The notes beneath the pieces were generated by a model. It ran no database searches and was not told the origin of the DNA. It saw only the letters and a list, made by a program, of their open reading frames with translations. A DNA stretch of 42,349 nucleotides from a virus. The position numbers and the translations under genes are program-made. How positions within the stretch are numbered: position 1 is the stretch's first letter; each line of letters starts with the position of its first letter. This document shows positions 3,829-16,557 of the stretch, piece by piece. Location: the IMG/VR virus record IMGVR_UViG_3300029248_000015; one strand, 5' to 3'.

Positions 3829-4614
3829 TTGAAAGAGGAAGAGCAGAAAAGCATAGTCATTTACAAATCATGGAAAAAGCCGTTGCGGAAATTGTCTCTG
3901 GAGCAAAAAGGCAGGATTTTTGACGCGCTGCTTGATTTCCCCGATCCGCCGAATTTTGAGGACGACCAGAAGCTCGAAATGGCGTGGGATTTTATGTCCG
4001 AGGCGGTGGAATCAAATTCTAAAAAATGGAACGAAAAACGAGAAAAGAGAGCTGCCGCAGGGCGTAAAGGCGCAGAAGTTACAAACGGCAAGCGTCAGCA
4101 AAACGCGGCAAATCCGGCAAATGCCGACTTTGACGAGCAAAAACAGCAAAACGCGGCAAATCCGGCTGTAAATGTAAATGGTAATGTAAATGGTAATGGT
4201 AATGTAAATGGTAATGGTAATGGTATATCACCTAACGGTGGTGTATATAATAGCGCCGCACCCGCCGCCGTTGACGTAGAACTTTCCAAGATCGTCCAGC
4301 ATTATCAGCAGGCCGTTGGAGACTTCCCACGTTCTGCACTGGACAAGCTGCAGAAGTGGCGGCAGGAGTACAGCACAGAGATGATCCTGCTGGCGATTGA
4401 CAAGGCCACAGAAGCCGGGAAGCGCTCGTGGAGCTACATCAACGGCATATTGTCCGGCTGGAAACGGGACGGCCTGCGCACGCCGGGAGACGTGGAAGCC
4501 AATGAACAAAGCCGACAAGCCAGACCGAGGGGCAAGCAGCCAACCGAGACCGTAGACGACCAGCTTGCCCGGGTGCTGGCGAAGATGGACAGAGAAAGGG
4601 GTTTTGAGACATGA
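3829..4614 (+). CDS. Replisome organiser / replication initiation protein with C-terminal DnaD domain
   Basis: TTG start 6 nt after AAAGGAGGTG. The C-terminal ...MILLAIDKATEAGKRSWSYINGILSGWKRDGLRT is the DnaD-domain signature. A low-complexity NVNG linker carries DNA repeats. Confidence 0.85.
   Translation: MKEEEQKSIVIYKSWKKPLRKLSLEQKGRIFDALLDFPDPPNFEDDQKLEMAWDFMSEAVESNSKKWNEKREKRAAAGRKGAEVTNGKRQQNAANPANADFDEQKQQNAANPAVNVNGNVNGNGNVNGNGNGISPNGGVYNSAAPAAVDVELSKIVQHYQQAVGDFPRSALDKLQKWRQEYSTEMILLAIDKATEAGKRSWSYINGILSGWKRDGLRTPGDVEANEQSRQARPRGKQPTETVDDQLARVLAKMDRERGFET
4096..4166 (+). repeat. Two exact 23-bp direct repeats (CAGCAAAACGCGGCAAATCCGGC) 48 bp apart; candidate origin iterons
   Basis: Copies at 4096-4118 and 4144-4166, inside the inter-domain linker of the DnaD-type gene. 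Confidence 0.7.
4168..4225 (+). repeat. Tandem GTAAAT/GGTAAT hexamer array (AT-rich relative to surroundings)
   Basis: gtaaatgtaaatggtaatgtaaatggtaatggtaatgtaaatggtaatggtaatggt, encoding (VN/GN)n. Lies immediately after the 23-bp repeats. Confidence 0.8.
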
Positions 4615-5180
4615 CGCGGGAAGACGTGGCAAAGCTGATCCGCATGAATTTTGTACTGTACAAGCTGGGATCTAAGCCACTGACCGATGAGGAGATGCAG
4701 ACCACCATCGATGCGTGGACGTACCAGTTTGGCGACTATGACGGCGATACTGTTAAGCGGGCTTTTCTGGCGGCAAACCGGGTATGCGTTTATCCGGTCA
4801 CGGTGGCCGACATCTTCAAGCAGCTTTCCCAGTGCCTTGACCCGTCCGCTGAATGGGAAGCTCTGGCTGTAGCGGCACGCAAGGCACAGACATTTTTGAA
4901 CTGGCGCAAGTTCCCGATGATCATCGGCATTGACGAAAAGGGCGAGCTGCTGCGTAGTGACGGGCAGAAAGAACTACAAGCTCTGTATGACCAACTCCCC
5001 CCGGCGGCAAAATCCTATGCCGGGAGCGTGGGAGGGCTGGCAGAGCTGGCTGAAATGCCAGACCTTACATACCGCCGGGGGGAGTTTTTGAAGCAGGCGC
5101 AGGCCTATATCACCACTGCCCCGCGTGAAGCAGCAAGGCTGCGGGCGAGTGAGCCGACAAGGAAGGAGATTGAAAAATGA
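4611..5180 (+). CDS. Putative helicase loader (G39P-like N-terminal domain)
   Basis: ATGA overlap. IDAWTYQFGDYDGDTVKRAFLAANRVCVYPVTVADIFKQL resembles the SPP1 G39P loader motif (recollection). Position is right after the replisome organiser. Confidence 0.55.
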   Translation: MTREDVAKLIRMNFVLYKLGSKPLTDEEMQTTIDAWTYQFGDYDGDTVKRAFLAANRVCVYPVTVADIFKQLSQCLDPSAEWEALAVAARKAQTFLNWRKFPMIIGIDEKGELLRSDGQKELQALYDQLPPAAKSYAGSVGGLAELAEMPDLTYRRGEFLKQAQAYITTAPREAARLRASEPTRKEIEK

Positions 5181-6168: not shown

Positions 6169-6431
6169 AGCGGACTGCAAGTAAATGGGTTGACCCATCA
6201 AAGAGACTGCCTCGTAGCCTGAAGCCCGTCCTCTTTGTGGAAAAATCGCTCTTCCACGAGGAATCGGTGGTCGGATGCTATGACTCCACCTATAAATGCT
6301 GGACGATTTTAGAGCGTGGGTACAGCATCACAAGATCCATTCCAACCGAAAACGTGCGGTGTTGGATGCCGAAGCCCAAGCCGCCTAGAAAGAGGGAACC
6401 TGCAAAAGCGAACGGAGGTGCGGACAGATGA
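6165..6431 (+). CDS. DUF551-like small protein
   Basis: GTG after GGAGGAG. ...WVDPSKRLP...VRCWMPKPKPP. Confidence 0.55.
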   Translation: MKRTASKWVDPSKRLPRSLKPVLFVEKSLFHEESVVGCYDSTYKCWTILERGYSITRSIPTENVRCWMPKPKPPRKREPAKANGGADR

Positions 6432-7125
6432 AAGTACTTATCGCCTGTGAGGAATCGCAGGAAGTATGCAAGGCGTTTCGGGCAAAAGGACACGAAGCCT
6501 ACTCCTGCGACATTCAGGAGCCGTCCGGCGGGCATCCAGAGTGGCACATCCTCGGCGACGCCCTCAAGGCTGTTGAGGGGGGGGGCAAGTCGTGACGATG
6601 GACGGTGTAACGCATGACGTTGGCAAGTGGGACTTGCTCATTGCACACCCACCTTGCACATACCTGAGCAATGCAGCAACGCGCTCATTCAGCTTGCGTG
6701 TCACCCCGGCGGAAAAGGTTGTTGCCCGGTGGGCGGAGCGTGTAAAAGCTGCAATTTTCCTTATGCAGTTCATGTTGGCAGATGTCCCCAAAATTGCAGT
6801 CGAGAACCCTGTAGGCATCATGAACACGGCGTACAGAAAAGCCGACCAGATCATTCATCCGTATTACTTTGCCGAAAGCAAGGAAGACGTAGAAAACTAT
6901 CACACAAAGCGCACTTGTCTTTGGCTGAAAAACCTGCCGCCTCTGGAACGGAAAAACAACTTTCCACCGCCAGAGCCCGTGTACGTCTCAAATGGGGAAA
7001 GGCGCAAGAAAATCAGCTGGTGCGAAGGCATACGAAATACGCACAACGGCCAAGAGGGCCGGGCAAAAGCCAGAAGCAAAACCGCACCAGGAATTGCAAA
7101 AGCAATGGCAGAGCAGTGGGGGTGA
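6428..7125 (+). pseudogene. DNA (cytosine-5)-methyltransferase-like gene split by a frameshift at a G9 tract (6428..6595 in one frame, 6592..7125 in the -1 frame)
   Basis: N-terminal piece MKVLIACEESQEVCKAFRAKGHEAYSCDIQEPSGGHPEWHILGDALKAVEGGGKS*. Downstream piece carries WDLLIAHPPCTYLS (motif IV PC), AVENPVG (motif VI ENV) and a C-terminal ...APGIAKAMAEQW. One extra G or two fewer Gs fuses the two pieces in frame. Confidence 0.75.
6577..6585 (+). repeat. Homopolymeric G9 tract at the methyltransferase frame break
   Basis: tgttgaGGGGGGGGGcaagtcgtga, counted directly. Confidence 0.9.
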
Positions 7126-7129
7126 GCAG

Positions 7130-7507
7130 ATGAAGCTGACTCTCTACGGCGACCCACGAACCAAAAAAAACTCTGCCCGTATCTTTAAAAGCCGCTCAGG
7201 CGGGCGCTTTGTGGCCCCTAGCAAGGCCTACGTGGATTATGAGACGGACTGTCTGCGGCAAATCAAAAGGCCGCACAGCCCCATTTCTGCCCGCTTGAAC
7301 GTGAGGTGCGTGTACTACATGAAAACCGCCCGCCGGGTCGATCTAGCAAACCTCATCGAGGCTACCACAGACATCCTGGTAAAAGCCCGCGTGCTGGAGG
7401 ACGACAACAGCAAGATCGTCGCCGCCCACGACGGCAGCCGGGTGGAGCTTGACCGGAAAAACCCGAGGGCGGAAATCGAGATTGAAGAAATGGAGGACGA
7501 TACATGA
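7130..7507 (+). CDS. rusA: RusA-family Holliday junction resolvase
   Basis: MKLTLYGDPRTKKNS...VDLANLIEATTDILVKARVLEDDNSKIV matches the RusA pattern (D-x-D-N / DD). ATG at 7130 follows GGGGGTGAG. Confidence 0.8.
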   Translation: MKLTLYGDPRTKKNSARIFKSRSGGRFVAPSKAYVDYETDCLRQIKRPHSPISARLNVRCVYYMKTARRVDLANLIEATTDILVKARVLEDDNSKIVAAHDGSRVELDRKNPRAEIEIEEMEDDT

Positions 7508-8208
7508 TGTTTGTGTTAAACAAATGCTATAACATGGACTGCATGGAAGCAATGAAAGAGTTCCGGGACGATTTCTTTGATCTTGCTGTGGTAGACCCGC
7601 CGTATTTTTCGGGGCCTGAACGCAGAGGATTCTACGGGTCAAAAATCAGCAAGATTGGAGTACATCGTGACTATCCGGTTTCGCCGGAATGGACGAAGCC
7701 GGGAAAGGAATACTTCGACGAGCTGCGCCGGGTAAGCCGACACTACATTGTATGGGGCTGCAACTACTTCGATTATAGTTTTGCATCCGGTCGGATCGTG
7801 TGGGACAAGTGCAATGGAAAATCGAGTTTCTCAGACTGTGAGATCGCGGCGACGGATTTGTTCTCTAGTGTTCGGCTGTTTCGGTATATGTGGTCTGGAA
7901 TGATGCAAGGTAAGAGCATCACAGAAGGACATATCATGCAGGGCAATAAAAGCCTGAACGAGAAAAGAATCCATCCAACACAGAAACCAGTTGCGCTGTA
8001 TGATTGGATCTTCAAAAACTACGCAAAGCCTGGACAAAAGGTGCTAGATACTCACCTTGGCAGCGGAAGTAGCAGAATTGCCGCTTATGAAGCCGGAATT
8101 GACTTTATCGGGTTTGAAATTGACAGTTCCTATTTTCACATGGAAGAAGAGAGGTTTGCGGAGCGCACAAGTCAAATGAGCCTACTACACATCGAGGAGG
8201 GAAAGTGA
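7504..8208 (+). CDS. DNA methyltransferase, N6-adenine/N4-cytosine class (DPPY motif)
   Basis: VVDPPYF (motif IV), HPTQKP, and LDTHLGSGSSRIAA (motif I) in beta-class order. Hand-counted GC in a sampled 60-nt line is about 45%, lower than the flanking sequence. Confidence 0.85.
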   Translation: MMFVLNKCYNMDCMEAMKEFRDDFFDLAVVDPPYFSGPERRGFYGSKISKIGVHRDYPVSPEWTKPGKEYFDELRRVSRHYIVWGCNYFDYSFASGRIVWDKCNGKSSFSDCEIAATDLFSSVRLFRYMWSGMMQGKSITEGHIMQGNKSLNEKRIHPTQKPVALYDWIFKNYAKPGQKVLDTHLGSGSSRIAAYEAGIDFIGFEIDSSYFHMEEERFAERTSQMSLLHIEEGK

Positions 8209-8708
8209 TGACCCGCACATGGACACCTGAAAGCGAACAACCAAAACCCCGCACCGGTGTGGACTATCGCGAGGTAAAGGCGTGGTTCCAGCAGTGCAGA
8301 GACCTGGCGGAGCAGGTCGAGGCCCAGAAGCAGAAGATCCAGCGCATCCGGGACACTGCCGAAAAATGCACCCAGAGCATGAGCGGGATGCCGATGGGCG
8401 GTGGAGCCGGTGACAAGGTGGGCTTTGCCGTGGAGAGAATTGACACAGAAGAGCGGAACCTCAAGCAGATGGAGCTTGATCTCTGCGAACTGCGCATCGA
8501 AGCTGCCCGGCGGGCCTACTGCCTGAGCGGGTCTGCTCGGTCTGAAAAGCAAGCAAAGTGCATCTGCGGCTGGTATATCGACCTGAAACCACAAAAGAAG
8601 ATCGCGGTAGACGTGGGCTTGTCCAGAGACAATTCGGTCTCTACCTACATCCACGAGGGGTTTGACGCTTTGGCAGAAATCTGGGAGGATGTACAAAACG
8701 ACCATTGA
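8205..8708 (+). CDS. DUF1492-like sigma-region-4-type HTH protein (putative late-gene activator)
   Basis: The architecture (coiled N-terminus, SGMP...GD, ERIDTEERNL, C-terminal HTH ...KKIAVDVGLSRDNSVSTYIHEGFDAL) and the position before the terminase genes are typical of DUF1492/RinA-like regulators (recollection). Start is GTG 8205 or ATG 8208. Confidence 0.6.
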   Translation: MMTRTWTPESEQPKPRTGVDYREVKAWFQQCRDLAEQVEAQKQKIQRIRDTAEKCTQSMSGMPMGGGAGDKVGFAVERIDTEERNLKQMELDLCELRIEAARRAYCLSGSARSEKQAKCICGWYIDLKPQKKIAVDVGLSRDNSVSTYIHEGFDALAEIWEDVQNDH

Positions 8709-9302: not shown

Positions 9303-9377
9303 ATTCCCGTAGTTCAAAATCGGTAGAGCAGCGGTCTCCAAAACCGCATGTTGCAGGTTCGAGCCCTGCCGGGAGTG
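9303..9377 (+). tRNA. tRNA-Trp (anticodon CCA)
   Basis: Hand-folded cloverleaf: acceptor ATTCCCG/CGGGAGT (one G-U pair), D-arm GTTC..GAGC, anticodon arm GCGGT-CTCCAAA-ACCGC, T-arm GCAGG-TTCGAGC-CCTGC. No encoded CCA. Confidence 0.8.
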
Positions 9378-9509
9378 CTTGCGTGCCCTATGAGGGGGCC
9401 GCGCAATAGCGGGGCATCCGGCCGCGAAAGTTCCGGATGCAGCAGCGCCCACCGTTTGACGCATGTCCAACGAACTGAATGCACGGGTGCTGCTTATTTT
9501 GATATTTTG

Positions 9510-16480: not shown

Positions 16481-16557
16481 GCCGCTTTAGCTCAGGTTGG
16501 CAGAGCGCCGGATTTGTAATCCGGGGGCCGTGGGTTCAAGCCCCACAGGCGGCACCA
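16481..16557 (+). tRNA. tRNA-Thr (anticodon TGT), CCA encoded
   Basis: GCCGCTT-TA-GCTC-AGGTTGGCA-GAGC-G-CCGGA-TTTGTAA-TCCGG-GGGCC-GTGGG-TTCAAGC-CCCAC-AGGCGGC-A-CCA. Canonical cloverleaf. Confidence 0.9.

What the first reader, a model, noticed from the sequence alone, without database searches (positions are those of the whole stretch)
6428..7125. C5-methyltransferase gene interrupted at a homopolymeric G9 tract: candidate phase-variable (or slippage-dependent) phage methylase
**Two pieces.** The N-terminal piece (6428..6595) reads MKVLIACEESQ...HPEWHILGDALKAVEGGGKS*. The downstream piece (6592..7125) carries motif IV PPC, motif VI ENPVG and a C-terminal GIAKAMAEQW. Together they make one small C5-MTase-like protein, but they lie in frames that differ by -1.

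**Where the break falls.** The break is exactly at nine consecutive Gs (6577-6585). With 10 Gs or 7 Gs the reading becomes ...AVEGGG(G)QVVTMDGVTHDVGKWDLLIAHPPC..., a continuous ~233-aa protein.

**Possible mechanisms.**
- Slipped-strand ON/OFF switching.
- RNA polymerase slippage, or a -1 ribosomal slip on G GGG GGG.
- A homopolymer sequencing error.

Phase-variable methyltransferases are well known in bacterial restriction-modification systems. I am not aware of a well-described case in an orphan phage methylase.
Basis: partly seen in the sequence, partly recalled or inferred. Interest (0 to 1): 0.65.

Follow-up and report, generated by a model that had tools for sequence, protein, structure and literature searches.

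The report
Poly-G switch in phage methylase gene
A gut phage's DNA-methylase-like gene is broken only by a run of nine Gs whose length differs between otherwise identical copies in hundreds of human-gut samples, so the gene is probably switched on and off by replication slippage rather than dead or mis-sequenced.

Summary
Nine Gs at 6577-6585 split one gene into a 55-aa ORF (6428-6595) and a 177-aa ORF (6592-7125, -1 frame). A run of 7 or 10 Gs gives one protein of 231 or 232 aa.

That protein matches PHROG 757 ("DNA methyltransferase") end to end. Its predicted fold hits only C5 DNA methyltransferases. It fails the Pfam C5-MTase model and lacks the FxGxG cofactor loop, so I call it "C5-MTase-like, activity untested".

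The run is polymorphic in nature:
- **Frame-blind census:** of 119 IMG/VR copies, 90 are in frame (mostly G7) and 29 (24%) are out of frame. Every out-of-frame copy differs only in run length.
- **Interrupted runs:** all 12 copies with an interrupted run are in frame.
- **Young alleles:** 12 of 35 out-of-frame alleles have an in-frame twin identical over 681 nt, and none carries a second lesion.
- **Retention:** the run is kept in 81 of 90 haplotypes although GGG is a minor codon.
- **Independent assembly:** G9 itself appears in many samples.

Length is not conserved and there is no downstream RNA structure, which argues against programmed frameshifting.

Best reading: this is a slipped-strand contingency locus and the window carries an OFF allele. 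Reversibility and methylation were not tested. It is a new member of a known kind, with T2 agt and Campylobacter-phage polyG tracts as precedents.

The parts
6428..7125 (+). Whole C5-MTase-like gene (phrog_757 family), split in this window. It is a single 231-aa ORF with 7 Gs and a 232-aa ORF with 10 Gs.
   Evidence: The repaired protein matches phrog_757 full length (E 3e-54) and is 93-95% identical to the intact 231-aa proteins P0001-P0003.
6414..6418 (+). Shine-Dalgarno-like GGAGG, 9 nt upstream of the ATG at 6428.
   Evidence: Read directly from the sequence.
6428..6595 (+). N-terminal piece (55 aa), ending at a TGA created by the frameshift. It encodes strand 1, helix A and strand 2 of the Rossmann-type fold, including the invariant ACEESQ and SGGHPEWH motifs.
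   Evidence: The exact 55-aa product is indexed in 57 blocks of public assemblies.
6577..6585 (+). Hypermutable poly-G run, G9 here (OFF). G7 is the common in-frame state. The run encodes the Gly-Gly turn at residues 52-53.
   Evidence: Lengths of 5 to 12 are seen in relatives. In the IMG/VR census every out-of-frame copy differs only in run length.
6592..7125 (+). C-terminal piece (177 aa from the GTG at 6592) with invariant PPC (motif IV-like), ENP (motif VI-like) and the RSKT...AMAEQW C-terminus.
   Evidence: The exact 177-aa product was found on 24 contigs read, listed in 54 index blocks.
6592..6595 (+). GTGA overlap: the stop codon of the 55-aa piece overlaps the GTG start of the 177-aa piece. 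The G run lies 7-15 nt upstream and looks like a Shine-Dalgarno sequence.
   Evidence: Read from the sequence. Any functional meaning, such as re-initiation, is inference only.

Best explanation
The gene encodes a small, divergent, orphan C5-cytosine-methyltransferase-like enzyme of a temperate siphovirus-type phage from the human gut. Two glycine codons near its 5' end, together with the last base of the preceding codon, form a run of Gs. During DNA replication the run gains or loses bases by slipped-strand mispairing.

A run of 7 Gs (rarely 10) keeps the frame and gives the full 231/232-aa protein. Runs of 6, 8, 9, 11 or 12 Gs stop translation after 54-63 residues, removing the catalytic PPC and ENP motifs. 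The window carries an OFF allele (G9), two steps from G7 and one step from G10.

What is shown:
- The run length is polymorphic among otherwise identical genes.
- OFF alleles are frequent, young and otherwise intact.
- The run is preserved against synonymous change.

What is inferred:
- Switching is fast and reversible within a population.
- The protein methylates cytosine.
- ON/OFF heterogeneity is a bet-hedge. Methylated phage DNA would escape methylation-sensitive restriction but be exposed to methylation-dependent (type IV) restriction. Alternatively, methylation may be costly in lysogens.
For: 1. **Anatomy.** G9 lies at 6577-6585, and 7 or 10 Gs restore one ORF.
2. **Same flanks, different lengths.** Independent metagenome contigs with identical flanks carry G6, G7, G8, G9 or G11.
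3. **Exact-sequence census of this lineage.** Contig counts for the N-terminal piece are G6 22, G8 94, G9 28, G11 2, G12 1. The fully identical intact forms are G7 19 and G10 1.
4. **Frame-blind IMG/VR census.** 90 of 119 copies are in frame and 29 are out of frame. All 29 have uninterrupted runs (G5, G6, G8 or G9). All 12 interrupted runs are in frame (Fisher one-sided p = 0.029).
5. **Haplotypes.** 6 of 20 multi-member haplotypes identical over about 680 nt outside the run carry more than one run length. 12 of 35 OFF alleles have an ON twin at 0 differences and 3 more at 1 difference.
6. **No second lesions.** OFF alleles keep complete upstream and downstream ORFs. All 15 further G9 alleles are restored to 206-231 aa by resetting the run to 7.
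7. **Retention of the run.** It is uninterrupted in 81 of 90 haplotypes. The invariant SGG pair in the same genes uses six codon pairs and is never GGG-GGG. GGG is 15% of Gly codons, and 0 of 78 other Gly-Gly pairs are GGG-GGG.
8. **Distant homologues.** Homologues in other Clostridia genomes carry poly-G at the same Gly-Gly site, and two are frameshifted exactly there: L190 (G9) and L195 (G7).
9. **Other homopolymers.** Those with enough matched copies are stable: C6 in 17 of 17 and A6 in 8 of 8.
10. **G9 recurs.** It is found in at least 7 different gene contexts from independent samples.
11. **Enzyme class.** phrog_757 'DNA methyltransferase' matches at E 3e-54. The AF2 model has pLDDT 82 and pTM 0.81. 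The top 20 PDB fold matches are all C5 DNA methyltransferases. PPC and ENP are invariant.
12. **Precedent.** A homopolymer in T2 agt, a phage DNA-modification gene, switches reversibly and trades off TgvAB against McrBC restriction (bioRxiv 10.1101/2025.10.21.683753).
Against: - No reads were available, so heterogeneity within one population, the switching rate and reversibility are not shown. All counts come from consensus assemblies.
- Contigs are phylogenetically related, so counts are not independent events.
- The exact-sequence counts of ON versus OFF are not comparable, because ON needs 231 identical residues.
- The in-frame G10 state is rare (2 copies seen), so expansion beyond G8 mostly stays OFF.
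- Homopolymer controls were few: only three other runs had at least 5 matched copies, and one of 6 copies of the A8 run differed.
- The protein may not be an active methylase. It has no Pfam or NCBIfam hit, no sequence match to any PDB chain even with profiles, and invariant ACEESQ in place of motif I FxGxG. Fold TM-scores are only 0.31-0.50.
- The adaptive value is inferred, not shown.
Confidence: 0.7

Rival explanations
1. This is a mutational hot spot with no adaptive role. The methylase-like gene is a dispensable accessory gene. The G run is simply fragile, and OFF alleles are ordinary loss-of-function mutations held at mutation-selection balance rather than a maintained switch.
For: OFF alleles are common (24%), which fits weak selection on the gene. 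The gene sits in a mosaic 'nin-like' accessory region whose neighbours vary between phages. G10, the ON state reached by expansion, is rare. No phenotype is known.
Against: The run is retained in 81 of 90 haplotypes. Synonymous positions of a control Gly-Gly pair in the same genes have diversified, and GGG-GGG is otherwise absent from the phage. A purely deleterious fragile run should be replaced by GGT/GGC, as in the 12 stable interrupted alleles. No OFF allele carries a second lesion, and many are identical to ON alleles. Poly-G recurs at the same site in distant homologues.
Confidence: 0.2
2. This is programmed recoding. The G9 DNA is the functional allele, and full-length enzyme is made by -1 ribosomal frameshifting on G GGG GGG, or by RNA-polymerase slippage that adds one G to the mRNA.
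For: G GGG GGG formally fits the X XXY YYZ slippery pattern in the zero frame. A -1 slip would give exactly the 232-aa product. Long homopolymers can cause low-level transcriptional slippage (general knowledge), so OFF alleles may be leaky.
Against: Run length is not conserved: most copies are in-frame G7. The commonest OFF allele (G8) needs a +1 shift, not -1. The 100 nt downstream fold no better than shuffles (z = +0.78; 155 of 200 shuffles fold at least as well). Programmed sites are normally fixed across homologues.
Confidence: 0.06
3. This is a sequencing or assembly error. The real run in this genome is 7 or 10 Gs, and the gene is intact.
For: Homopolymers are error-prone on some platforms. 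The platform behind this window is unknown, and no reads could be inspected.
Against: The exact G9 N-terminal piece is listed in 57 index blocks. It was read on 21 contigs from independent human-gut samples in at least 7 gene contexts, and on the near-identical 42,092-bp contig L014/L221. Fifteen more G9 alleles were verified. Other homopolymers in the same contigs are stable. Consensus-level errors in 24% of assemblies are not expected for Illumina data (general knowledge).
Confidence: 0.04

Closest known systems
Phage T2 agt contingency locus (Gomez, Barrick & Waters, bioRxiv 10.1101/2025.10.21.683753)
   Same: A homopolymer inside a phage DNA-modification gene gains or loses single bases and gives ON and OFF progeny. 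In T2 this is experimentally reversible (about 1000-fold above a point mutant) and trades off two restriction systems: TgvAB, which attacks glucosylated DNA, and McrA/BC, which attacks unglucosylated hmC DNA.
   Different: T2 is a virulent coliphage, the run is poly-A, and the enzyme is a glucosyltransferase. Here the phage is temperate and from the gut, the run is poly-G, and the enzyme is C5-MTase-like. The evidence here is natural polymorphism across metagenomes, not laboratory switching.
Hypermutable polyG tracts of Campylobacter phages (Sorensen et al., Cell Rep 2021, doi 10.1016/j.celrep.2021.109214; cited in PMC12823448)
   Same: Poly-G runs inside phage genes create phenotypic diversity by frameshifting.
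   Different: From my own knowledge of that paper, which I did not read here, those tracts lie in receptor-binding and structural genes of virulent phages, whose host is itself rich in polyG. Here the target is a DNA-modification gene in a phage of Clostridia, where GGG is a minor codon.
Bacterial phase-variable methyltransferases (phasevarions): Type III mod genes of Haemophilus, Neisseria, Moraxella and Helicobacter, C. jejuni cj0031, Streptomyces pglX
   Same: A simple-sequence repeat within a methyltransferase ORF switches the enzyme ON and OFF. Poly-G runs are the usual repeat in Campylobacter, Helicobacter and pglX (review PMC13076061; pglX from my own knowledge).
   Different: Those genes are chromosomal, usually part of R-M or BREX systems, encode N6-adenine enzymes, and regulate host regulons. 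This gene is phage-borne, has no restriction partner nearby (its neighbours are DUF551, RusA, an N6/N4 MTase and a regulator), and is C5-like.
Prophage-encoded orphan methyltransferases without switching, for example S. aureus PamA (PMC13076061)
   Same: A prophage methyltransferase with possible effects on the lysogen's epigenome.
   Different: PamA is Dam-like and is not reported as phase-variable.
Canonical C5 cytosine methyltransferases (Pfam PF00145: M.HaeIII, M.HhaI, DNMT1/3)
   Same: The predicted fold retrieves only these enzymes. The Pro-Cys and Glu-Asn-x motifs are invariant.
   Different: The protein is only 231 aa and has no large target-recognition domain. Motif I FxGxG is replaced by invariant ACEESQ.

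Membership tests
SSR-mediated contingency (phase-variable) locus | A simple-sequence repeat inside the ORF, placed so that length changes not divisible by three truncate the product | tested here: met
   G9 lies at 6577-6585. Runs of 7 or 10 Gs give 231/232 aa; runs of 6, 8, 9, 11 or 12 Gs give 54-63 aa.
SSR-mediated contingency (phase-variable) locus | Repeat-length polymorphism among otherwise identical or near-identical alleles | tested here: met
   6 of 20 haplotypes identical outside the run carry more than one length. 12 of 35 OFF alleles have an ON twin at 0 differences over 681 nt. Lengths G5 to G12 are seen.
SSR-mediated contingency (phase-variable) locus | OFF alleles are otherwise intact, with no secondary disabling mutations | tested here: met
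   OFF alleles have complete flanking ORFs of normal length classes. All 15 extra G9 alleles are repaired by resetting the run.
SSR-mediated contingency (phase-variable) locus | The repeat is maintained against synonymous interruption | tested here: met
   The run is uninterrupted in 81 of 90 haplotypes. The control SGG pair is never GGG-GGG. GGG is 15% of Gly codons, and 0 of 78 other Gly-Gly pairs are GGG-GGG. All 12 interrupted alleles are in frame.
SSR-mediated contingency (phase-variable) locus | High-frequency, reversible switching within a clonal population | not testable with these tools
   This needs read-level data or plaque-lineage experiments. Only consensus assemblies were available.
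SSR-mediated contingency (phase-variable) locus | A phenotype that differs between ON and OFF | not testable with these tools
   This needs methylome and host-range assays.
C5 cytosine DNA methyltransferase (Pfam PF00145) | A significant match to the family model | tested here: not met
   The window protein and P0002 have no Pfam hit at E <= 0.1. Only 7 of 62 relatives hit PF00145, weakly (best E 0.055). There is no NCBIfam hit.
C5 cytosine DNA methyltransferase (Pfam PF00145) | A catalytic-domain fold like solved C5-MTases | tested here: met
   The AF2 model has pLDDT 82. The Foldseek PDB top 20 are all C5 DNA MTases (1dct E 4.8e-5, probability 0.97-1.0), although TM-scores are only 0.31-0.50.
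C5 cytosine DNA methyltransferase (Pfam PF00145) | Motif IV Pro-Cys (catalytic nucleophile) and motif VI Glu-Asn-Val | tested here: met
   P74, C76, E125, N126 and P127 are invariant in 62 diverse relatives, and P75 is nearly invariant. The window has HPPC and ENPVG. Equivalence to the motifs is by position and pattern, not by a significant alignment.
C5 cytosine DNA methyltransferase (Pfam PF00145) | Motif I FxGxG AdoMet-binding loop | tested here: not met
   The first strand-loop reads VLIACEESQ, with C7, E8 and S10 invariant, Q11 nearly invariant, and no glycine.
C5 cytosine DNA methyltransferase (Pfam PF00145) | Transfer of a methyl group to cytosine C5 in DNA | not testable with these tools
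   No biochemical or methylome data are available. Database names such as 'DNA methyltransferase' or 'Dcm-like' are annotations only.
Programmed -1 ribosomal frameshift site | A slippery heptamer X XXY YYZ in the zero frame | tested here: met
   (GA)G GGG GGG at 6577-6583 fits the pattern formally.
Programmed -1 ribosomal frameshift site | A stimulatory RNA structure a few nucleotides downstream | tested here: not met
   Bases 6586-6685 fold at -26.3 kcal/mol against a shuffle mean of -28.6 (z = +0.78).
Programmed -1 ribosomal frameshift site | The two-frame arrangement is conserved among homologues | tested here: not met
   76% of copies are single in-frame ORFs. OFF alleles need either -1 or +1 depending on run length.

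The most novel reading that the evidence does not exclude
Temperate phages of human-gut Clostridia may carry an adaptively maintained poly-G 'phage phasevarion'. A slippage switch would toggle cytosine modification of the phage genome, and of the lysogen's chromosome. Each burst or lysogen population would then contain both modified and unmodified genomes, hedging between methylation-sensitive and methylation-dependent host defences. It may be one of several such switches, because related phages carry a second length-variable poly-G run inside a PAPS-reductase-domain gene. A further untested twist concerns the G6/G9/G12 frame. There the stop of the first piece overlaps a GTG start (GTGA), with the G run acting as a Shine-Dalgarno-like element. 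These alleles might therefore produce a two-piece protein rather than none.
Probability: 0.35. Interest if true: 0.75.

Novelty: new member of a known kind. Interest (0 to 1): 0.55.

Why it matters
If the switch is real and adaptive, abundant temperate phages of the human gut would vary their own epigenetic mark stochastically. That would affect which hosts they can infect, how prophage methylases reshape lysogen methylomes, and how methylation-based host-linking of phages in metagenomes should be read.

The finding also matters for annotation. About a quarter of the copies of this gene in public viral catalogues are split into two 'hypothetical proteins' of about 55-63 and 177 aa, and these should be recognised as one switchable gene.

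It extends the recent laboratory demonstration of phage contingency loci (T2 agt) to natural populations, to a different enzyme class and to poly-G. It also offers a system that existing deep metagenomes can test directly.

Tried and rejected
- **Exact-pattern scan of GTDB species-representative genomes.** This gave 0 hits, so no isolate genome of the close lineage was found. The profile-based scan found only relatives at 65% identity or less.
- **Host identification.** This failed. The only cultured-phage link is 338 bp at 92.6% (269 bp at 95.2%) to Faecalibacterium phage FP_Epona, in the upstream DUF551 gene. Looking up a near-identical 55-aa piece returned only phage-sized contigs without taxon names. 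The host is therefore stated only as human-gut Clostridia, possibly Faecalibacterium.
- **Programmed -1 frameshifting.** Considered and rejected.
- **One-off assembly error.** Considered and rejected.
- **Literature.** Searches for a described phase-variable phage or prophage methyltransferase found none. The library is partial, so this is not proof of absence. The CJIE1 prophage paper looked promising, but its homopolymer tracts are in host genes.
- **Homopolymer controls.** These were limited by how little of the window the fetched loci cover. Only three other runs had at least 5 matched copies.
- **JGI metagenome scan.** Not run, because the other collections gave enough.
Full report
**1. 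The observation**

Bases 6577-6585 of the window are nine consecutive Gs. This is the only G/C homopolymer of 7 or more in the 42,349-bp window (54.5% G+C).

An ORF from the ATG at 6428 is preceded by GGAGG at 6414-6418. It reads MKVLIACEESQ...ALKAVEGGGKS and stops at 6593-6595. A second ORF in the -1 frame runs from the GTG at 6592 to 7125. It carries HPPC, ENPVG and GIAKAMAEQWG.

Rebuilding the gene with different run lengths shows that only 7 or 10 Gs give a single ORF, of 231 or 232 aa. Runs of 6, 8, 9, 11 or 12 Gs terminate after 54-63 codons.

**2. What the gene is**

The repaired protein matches PHROG 757 ("DNA methyltransferase") over its whole length (E 3e-54). It has thousands of intact homologues of 226-255 aa and belongs to a family of about 4,000 clusters at 50% identity. 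The family is present in 409 cultured-phage records. There it is annotated as DNA methyltransferase, SAM-dependent methyltransferase or Dcm-like C5 methyltransferase.

No curated model recognises it:
- It has no Pfam hit and no NCBIfam hit.
- It has no sequence or profile match to any PDB chain.
- Among 62 diverse relatives, PF00145 is the only Pfam family hit repeatedly, but only weakly (7 members, best E 0.055).

An AlphaFold2 model is confident (pLDDT 82, pTM 0.81). Its top 20 PDB fold matches are all C5 DNA methyltransferases: M.HaeIII, DNMT1, DNMT3A/B and MET1. Probabilities are 0.97-1.0 and TM-scores 0.31-0.50.

P74, C76 and E125-N126-P127 are invariant across the family, and P75 is nearly so. 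This fits motifs IV and VI. In contrast, the first strand-loop is an invariant ACEESQ rather than the glycine-rich FxGxG of motif I.

I therefore call the protein a divergent, small, C5-MTase-like enzyme. A methyltransferase activity is plausible but untested.

No restriction gene is adjacent. The neighbours are a DUF551 protein, RusA (7130-7507), an N6/N4 methyltransferase (7504-8208) and a phage transcription regulator.

The window as a whole is a temperate siphovirus-type phage. It has an integrase, a large terminase, an SPP1-type portal, a tape measure, RecT, and DnaB_2/DUF6291 replication proteins. All related contigs come from human-gut metagenomes. The only cultured-phage link is a short, highly similar stretch of Faecalibacterium phage FP_Epona in the upstream gene.

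**3. The run length varies in nature**

The closest intact proteins (93-95% identical) read AVEGGQVV, which is the 7-G form. Their DNA carries GAG GGG GGG CAA (L001-L008).

Looking up the window's exact 177-aa downstream product returned contigs from many independent samples. Their flanks are identical, but their runs are G6 (L018), G8 (L013, L015, L016, L019, L020), G9 (L014, L017, L021) or G11 (L012). Two diverged lineages are also out of frame at the same place (L009/L010 and L011).

An exact-sequence census of the products expected for each run length gave these contig counts:

| Run | Product counted | Contigs |
|---|---|---|
| G6 | N-terminal piece | 22 |
| G8 | N-terminal piece | 94 |
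| G9 | N-terminal piece | 28 |
| G11 | N-terminal piece | 2 |
| G12 | N-terminal piece | 1 |
| G7 | intact protein, fully identical | 19 |
| G10 | intact protein, fully identical | 1 |

The ON and OFF rows are not directly comparable, because the ON forms require all 231/232 residues to be identical.

Those look-ups were conditioned on the split state. I therefore scanned IMG/VR with a pattern that fixes only the flanks and leaves 8-24 free bases between them.
- 90 are in frame and 29 (24%) are out of frame.
- Run lengths are G7 73, G8 19, G6 10, G9 3, G10 1 and G5 1, with 12 interrupted runs such as GGTGGG.
- Every out-of-frame copy has an uninterrupted run.
- All 12 interrupted copies are in frame (one-sided Fisher p = 0.029; the copies are phylogenetically related, so this is indicative only).

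**4. Evidence that this is hypermutation rather than decay or error**

- **Variation within identical haplotypes.** Of 20 haplotypes with more than one member that are identical over about 680 nt outside the run, 6 contain more than one run length. Of 35 OFF alleles, 12 have an ON counterpart with zero differences over 681 nt, and 3 more have one difference. The run therefore changes faster than the rest of the gene combined.
- **No second lesions.** OFF alleles have complete upstream and downstream ORFs of the same length classes as ON alleles. All 15 additional G9 alleles are restored to 206-231 aa simply by resetting the run to 7.
- **Retention of the run.** GGG accounts for 15% of glycine codons in the window, and none of 78 other Gly-Gly pairs is GGG-GGG. 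The invariant Gly-Gly pair of the SGGHPEWH motif in the same genes uses six different codon pairs and is never GGG-GGG. The run, by contrast, is uninterrupted in 81 of 90 haplotypes.
- **Recurrence in distant homologues.** In homologues of 44-68% identity from other Clostridia genomes, poly-G recurs at the same Gly-Gly position. L155, L163, L171, L187 and L200 have G7 and L179 has G10. Two are frameshifted exactly there: L190 (G9) and L195 (G7).
- **Rarity of other G/C runs.** In 1.14 Mb of related viral loci, about 96 of the 111 G/C runs of 7 or more are this one site.
- **Stability of other homopolymers.** C6 at 4997-5002 is invariant in 17 of 17 matched copies and A6 at 4021-4026 in 8 of 8. 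A8 at 7163-7170 is unchanged in 5 of 6. This control is small.
- **G9 is not a one-off.** The 55-aa product is listed in 57 index blocks and was read on 21 contigs, in at least seven different neighbouring-gene contexts. One of these is a near-identical 42,092-bp contig (L014/L221).

**5. Alternatives**

*Programmed -1 frameshifting.* This is formally possible on G GGG GGG and would give the 232-aa product. However:
- The arrangement is not conserved, since 76% of copies are plain in-frame ORFs.
- The most common OFF allele (G8) needs the opposite shift.
- The 100 nt downstream fold no better than shuffled sequence (z = +0.78).

Low-level transcriptional or translational slippage that makes OFF alleles leaky cannot be excluded.

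*Neutral fragile site in a dispensable gene.* This remains the main rival. It explains the high OFF frequency. It does not explain the retention of the run or the absence of old, decayed OFF alleles.

**6. How it most likely works**

*Shown.* A poly-G run encoding a Gly-Gly turn varies in length between otherwise identical genes. The turn is at residues 52-53, in a confidently modelled region between a helix and a strand. G7 gives the full protein. The in-frame G10 variants show that an extra glycine can be encoded there. Other lengths truncate the protein before the PPC and ENP motifs.

*Inferred.* The changes arise by slipped-strand mispairing during phage or prophage replication and are reversible. 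The ON state modifies cytosines. A mixed ON/OFF population hedges between hosts whose defences attack unmethylated DNA and hosts whose defences attack methylated DNA. Alternatively, it relieves a cost of methylating the lysogen's chromosome.

The last idea follows the demonstrated case of T2 agt. There a poly-A run switches glucosylation and trades off TgvAB against McrA/BC restriction (bioRxiv 10.1101/2025.10.21.683753).

**7. Comparison with what is known, and novelty**

Repeat-mediated phase variation of methyltransferases is classical in bacteria (review PMC13076061). PolyG tracts in Campylobacter phages were described in 2021 (reference 58 in PMC12823448). Phage contingency loci, including a DNA-modification gene, were demonstrated in 2025.

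My searches found no described phase-variable phage or prophage methyltransferase. The held library is incomplete, so this is not proof of absence.

I therefore rate this a new member of a known kind. It combines a known mechanism (SSR contingency locus) and a known target class (DNA modification) in a new setting: a temperate gut phage, a C5-MTase-like orphan enzyme and a poly-G run. Its natural-population support is unusually rich, but it lacks read-level or experimental proof.

**8. Limits**

- No raw reads were available, so switching rate, reversibility and within-sample heterogeneity are untested.
- Counts are of related consensus contigs, not independent events.
- The host is not established.
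- The enzyme's activity is not established, and its cofactor loop is atypical.

Noticed in passing
Related loci, not in the window: L056 (~8601-8607, - strand), L057 (7678-7685), L068, L072, L090, L124, L134: There is a second length-variable poly-G/C run with conserved flanks (GTCCTATGGCCGGTA-Gn-CAGACAGCGYGAGTT). It lies inside an ORF with a PAPS-reductase domain (PF01507, E 9e-13). Seen once each are G6, G11 and an interrupted run (GGAGGGG); G7 and G8 are each seen twice. This may be a second contingency locus in a DNA-modification-type gene of these phages.
   Followed up: partly
L089 7766 and 10173, L100 5145; L053 4701, L059 1660, L113 8217: Two further recurrent G/C runs of 7-8 have conserved flanks: GTCAAAGCCCTTATA-G7/8-CGCAGGC, and GCTCTTCTCACGCCG-C7-TCGCTTGCC. 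The genes were not identified.
   Followed up: no
window 6592-6595: The TGA stop of the 55-aa piece overlaps the GTG start of the 177-aa piece (GTGA), and the G run 7-15 nt upstream looks like a Shine-Dalgarno sequence. In the G6/G9/G12 frame, termination-reinitiation could produce the C-terminal fragment. Whether the two pieces could complement each other is unknown.
   Followed up: no
window 7504-8208 (+): A second DNA methyltransferase (PF01555 N6_N4_Mtase, E 5e-16; phrog_23224) lies two genes downstream, with its start overlapping the RusA stop. The phage thus encodes two orphan methylases, and only one has a homopolymer.
   Followed up: partly
window 9303-9378 and 16481-16557 (+): The phage carries two tRNA genes: tRNA-Trp (CCA), just upstream of the terminase genes, and tRNA-Thr (TGT), within the structural module.
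   Followed up: no
window 7163-7170: There is an A8 run inside the RusA gene. One of six flank-matched relatives has A7, which would frameshift RusA.
   Followed up: no
L208, L217 (Helicobacter pylori genomes); phage record MG945386 (hit H23): Homologues 44-45% identical occur in two H. pylori genomes. A 58.7%-identical match covering 74% of the protein lies in a 5.6-kb record labelled 'Microviridae sp.' from pig faeces, an unusual place for a methylase-like gene.
   Followed up: no
L216 and L145 (distant homologues): L216 has an in-frame G9 at a different glycine run of the gene, equivalent to the SGGHPEWH motif. L145 is broken near an A7 run. Homopolymers may have arisen more than once in this family.
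   Followed up: no
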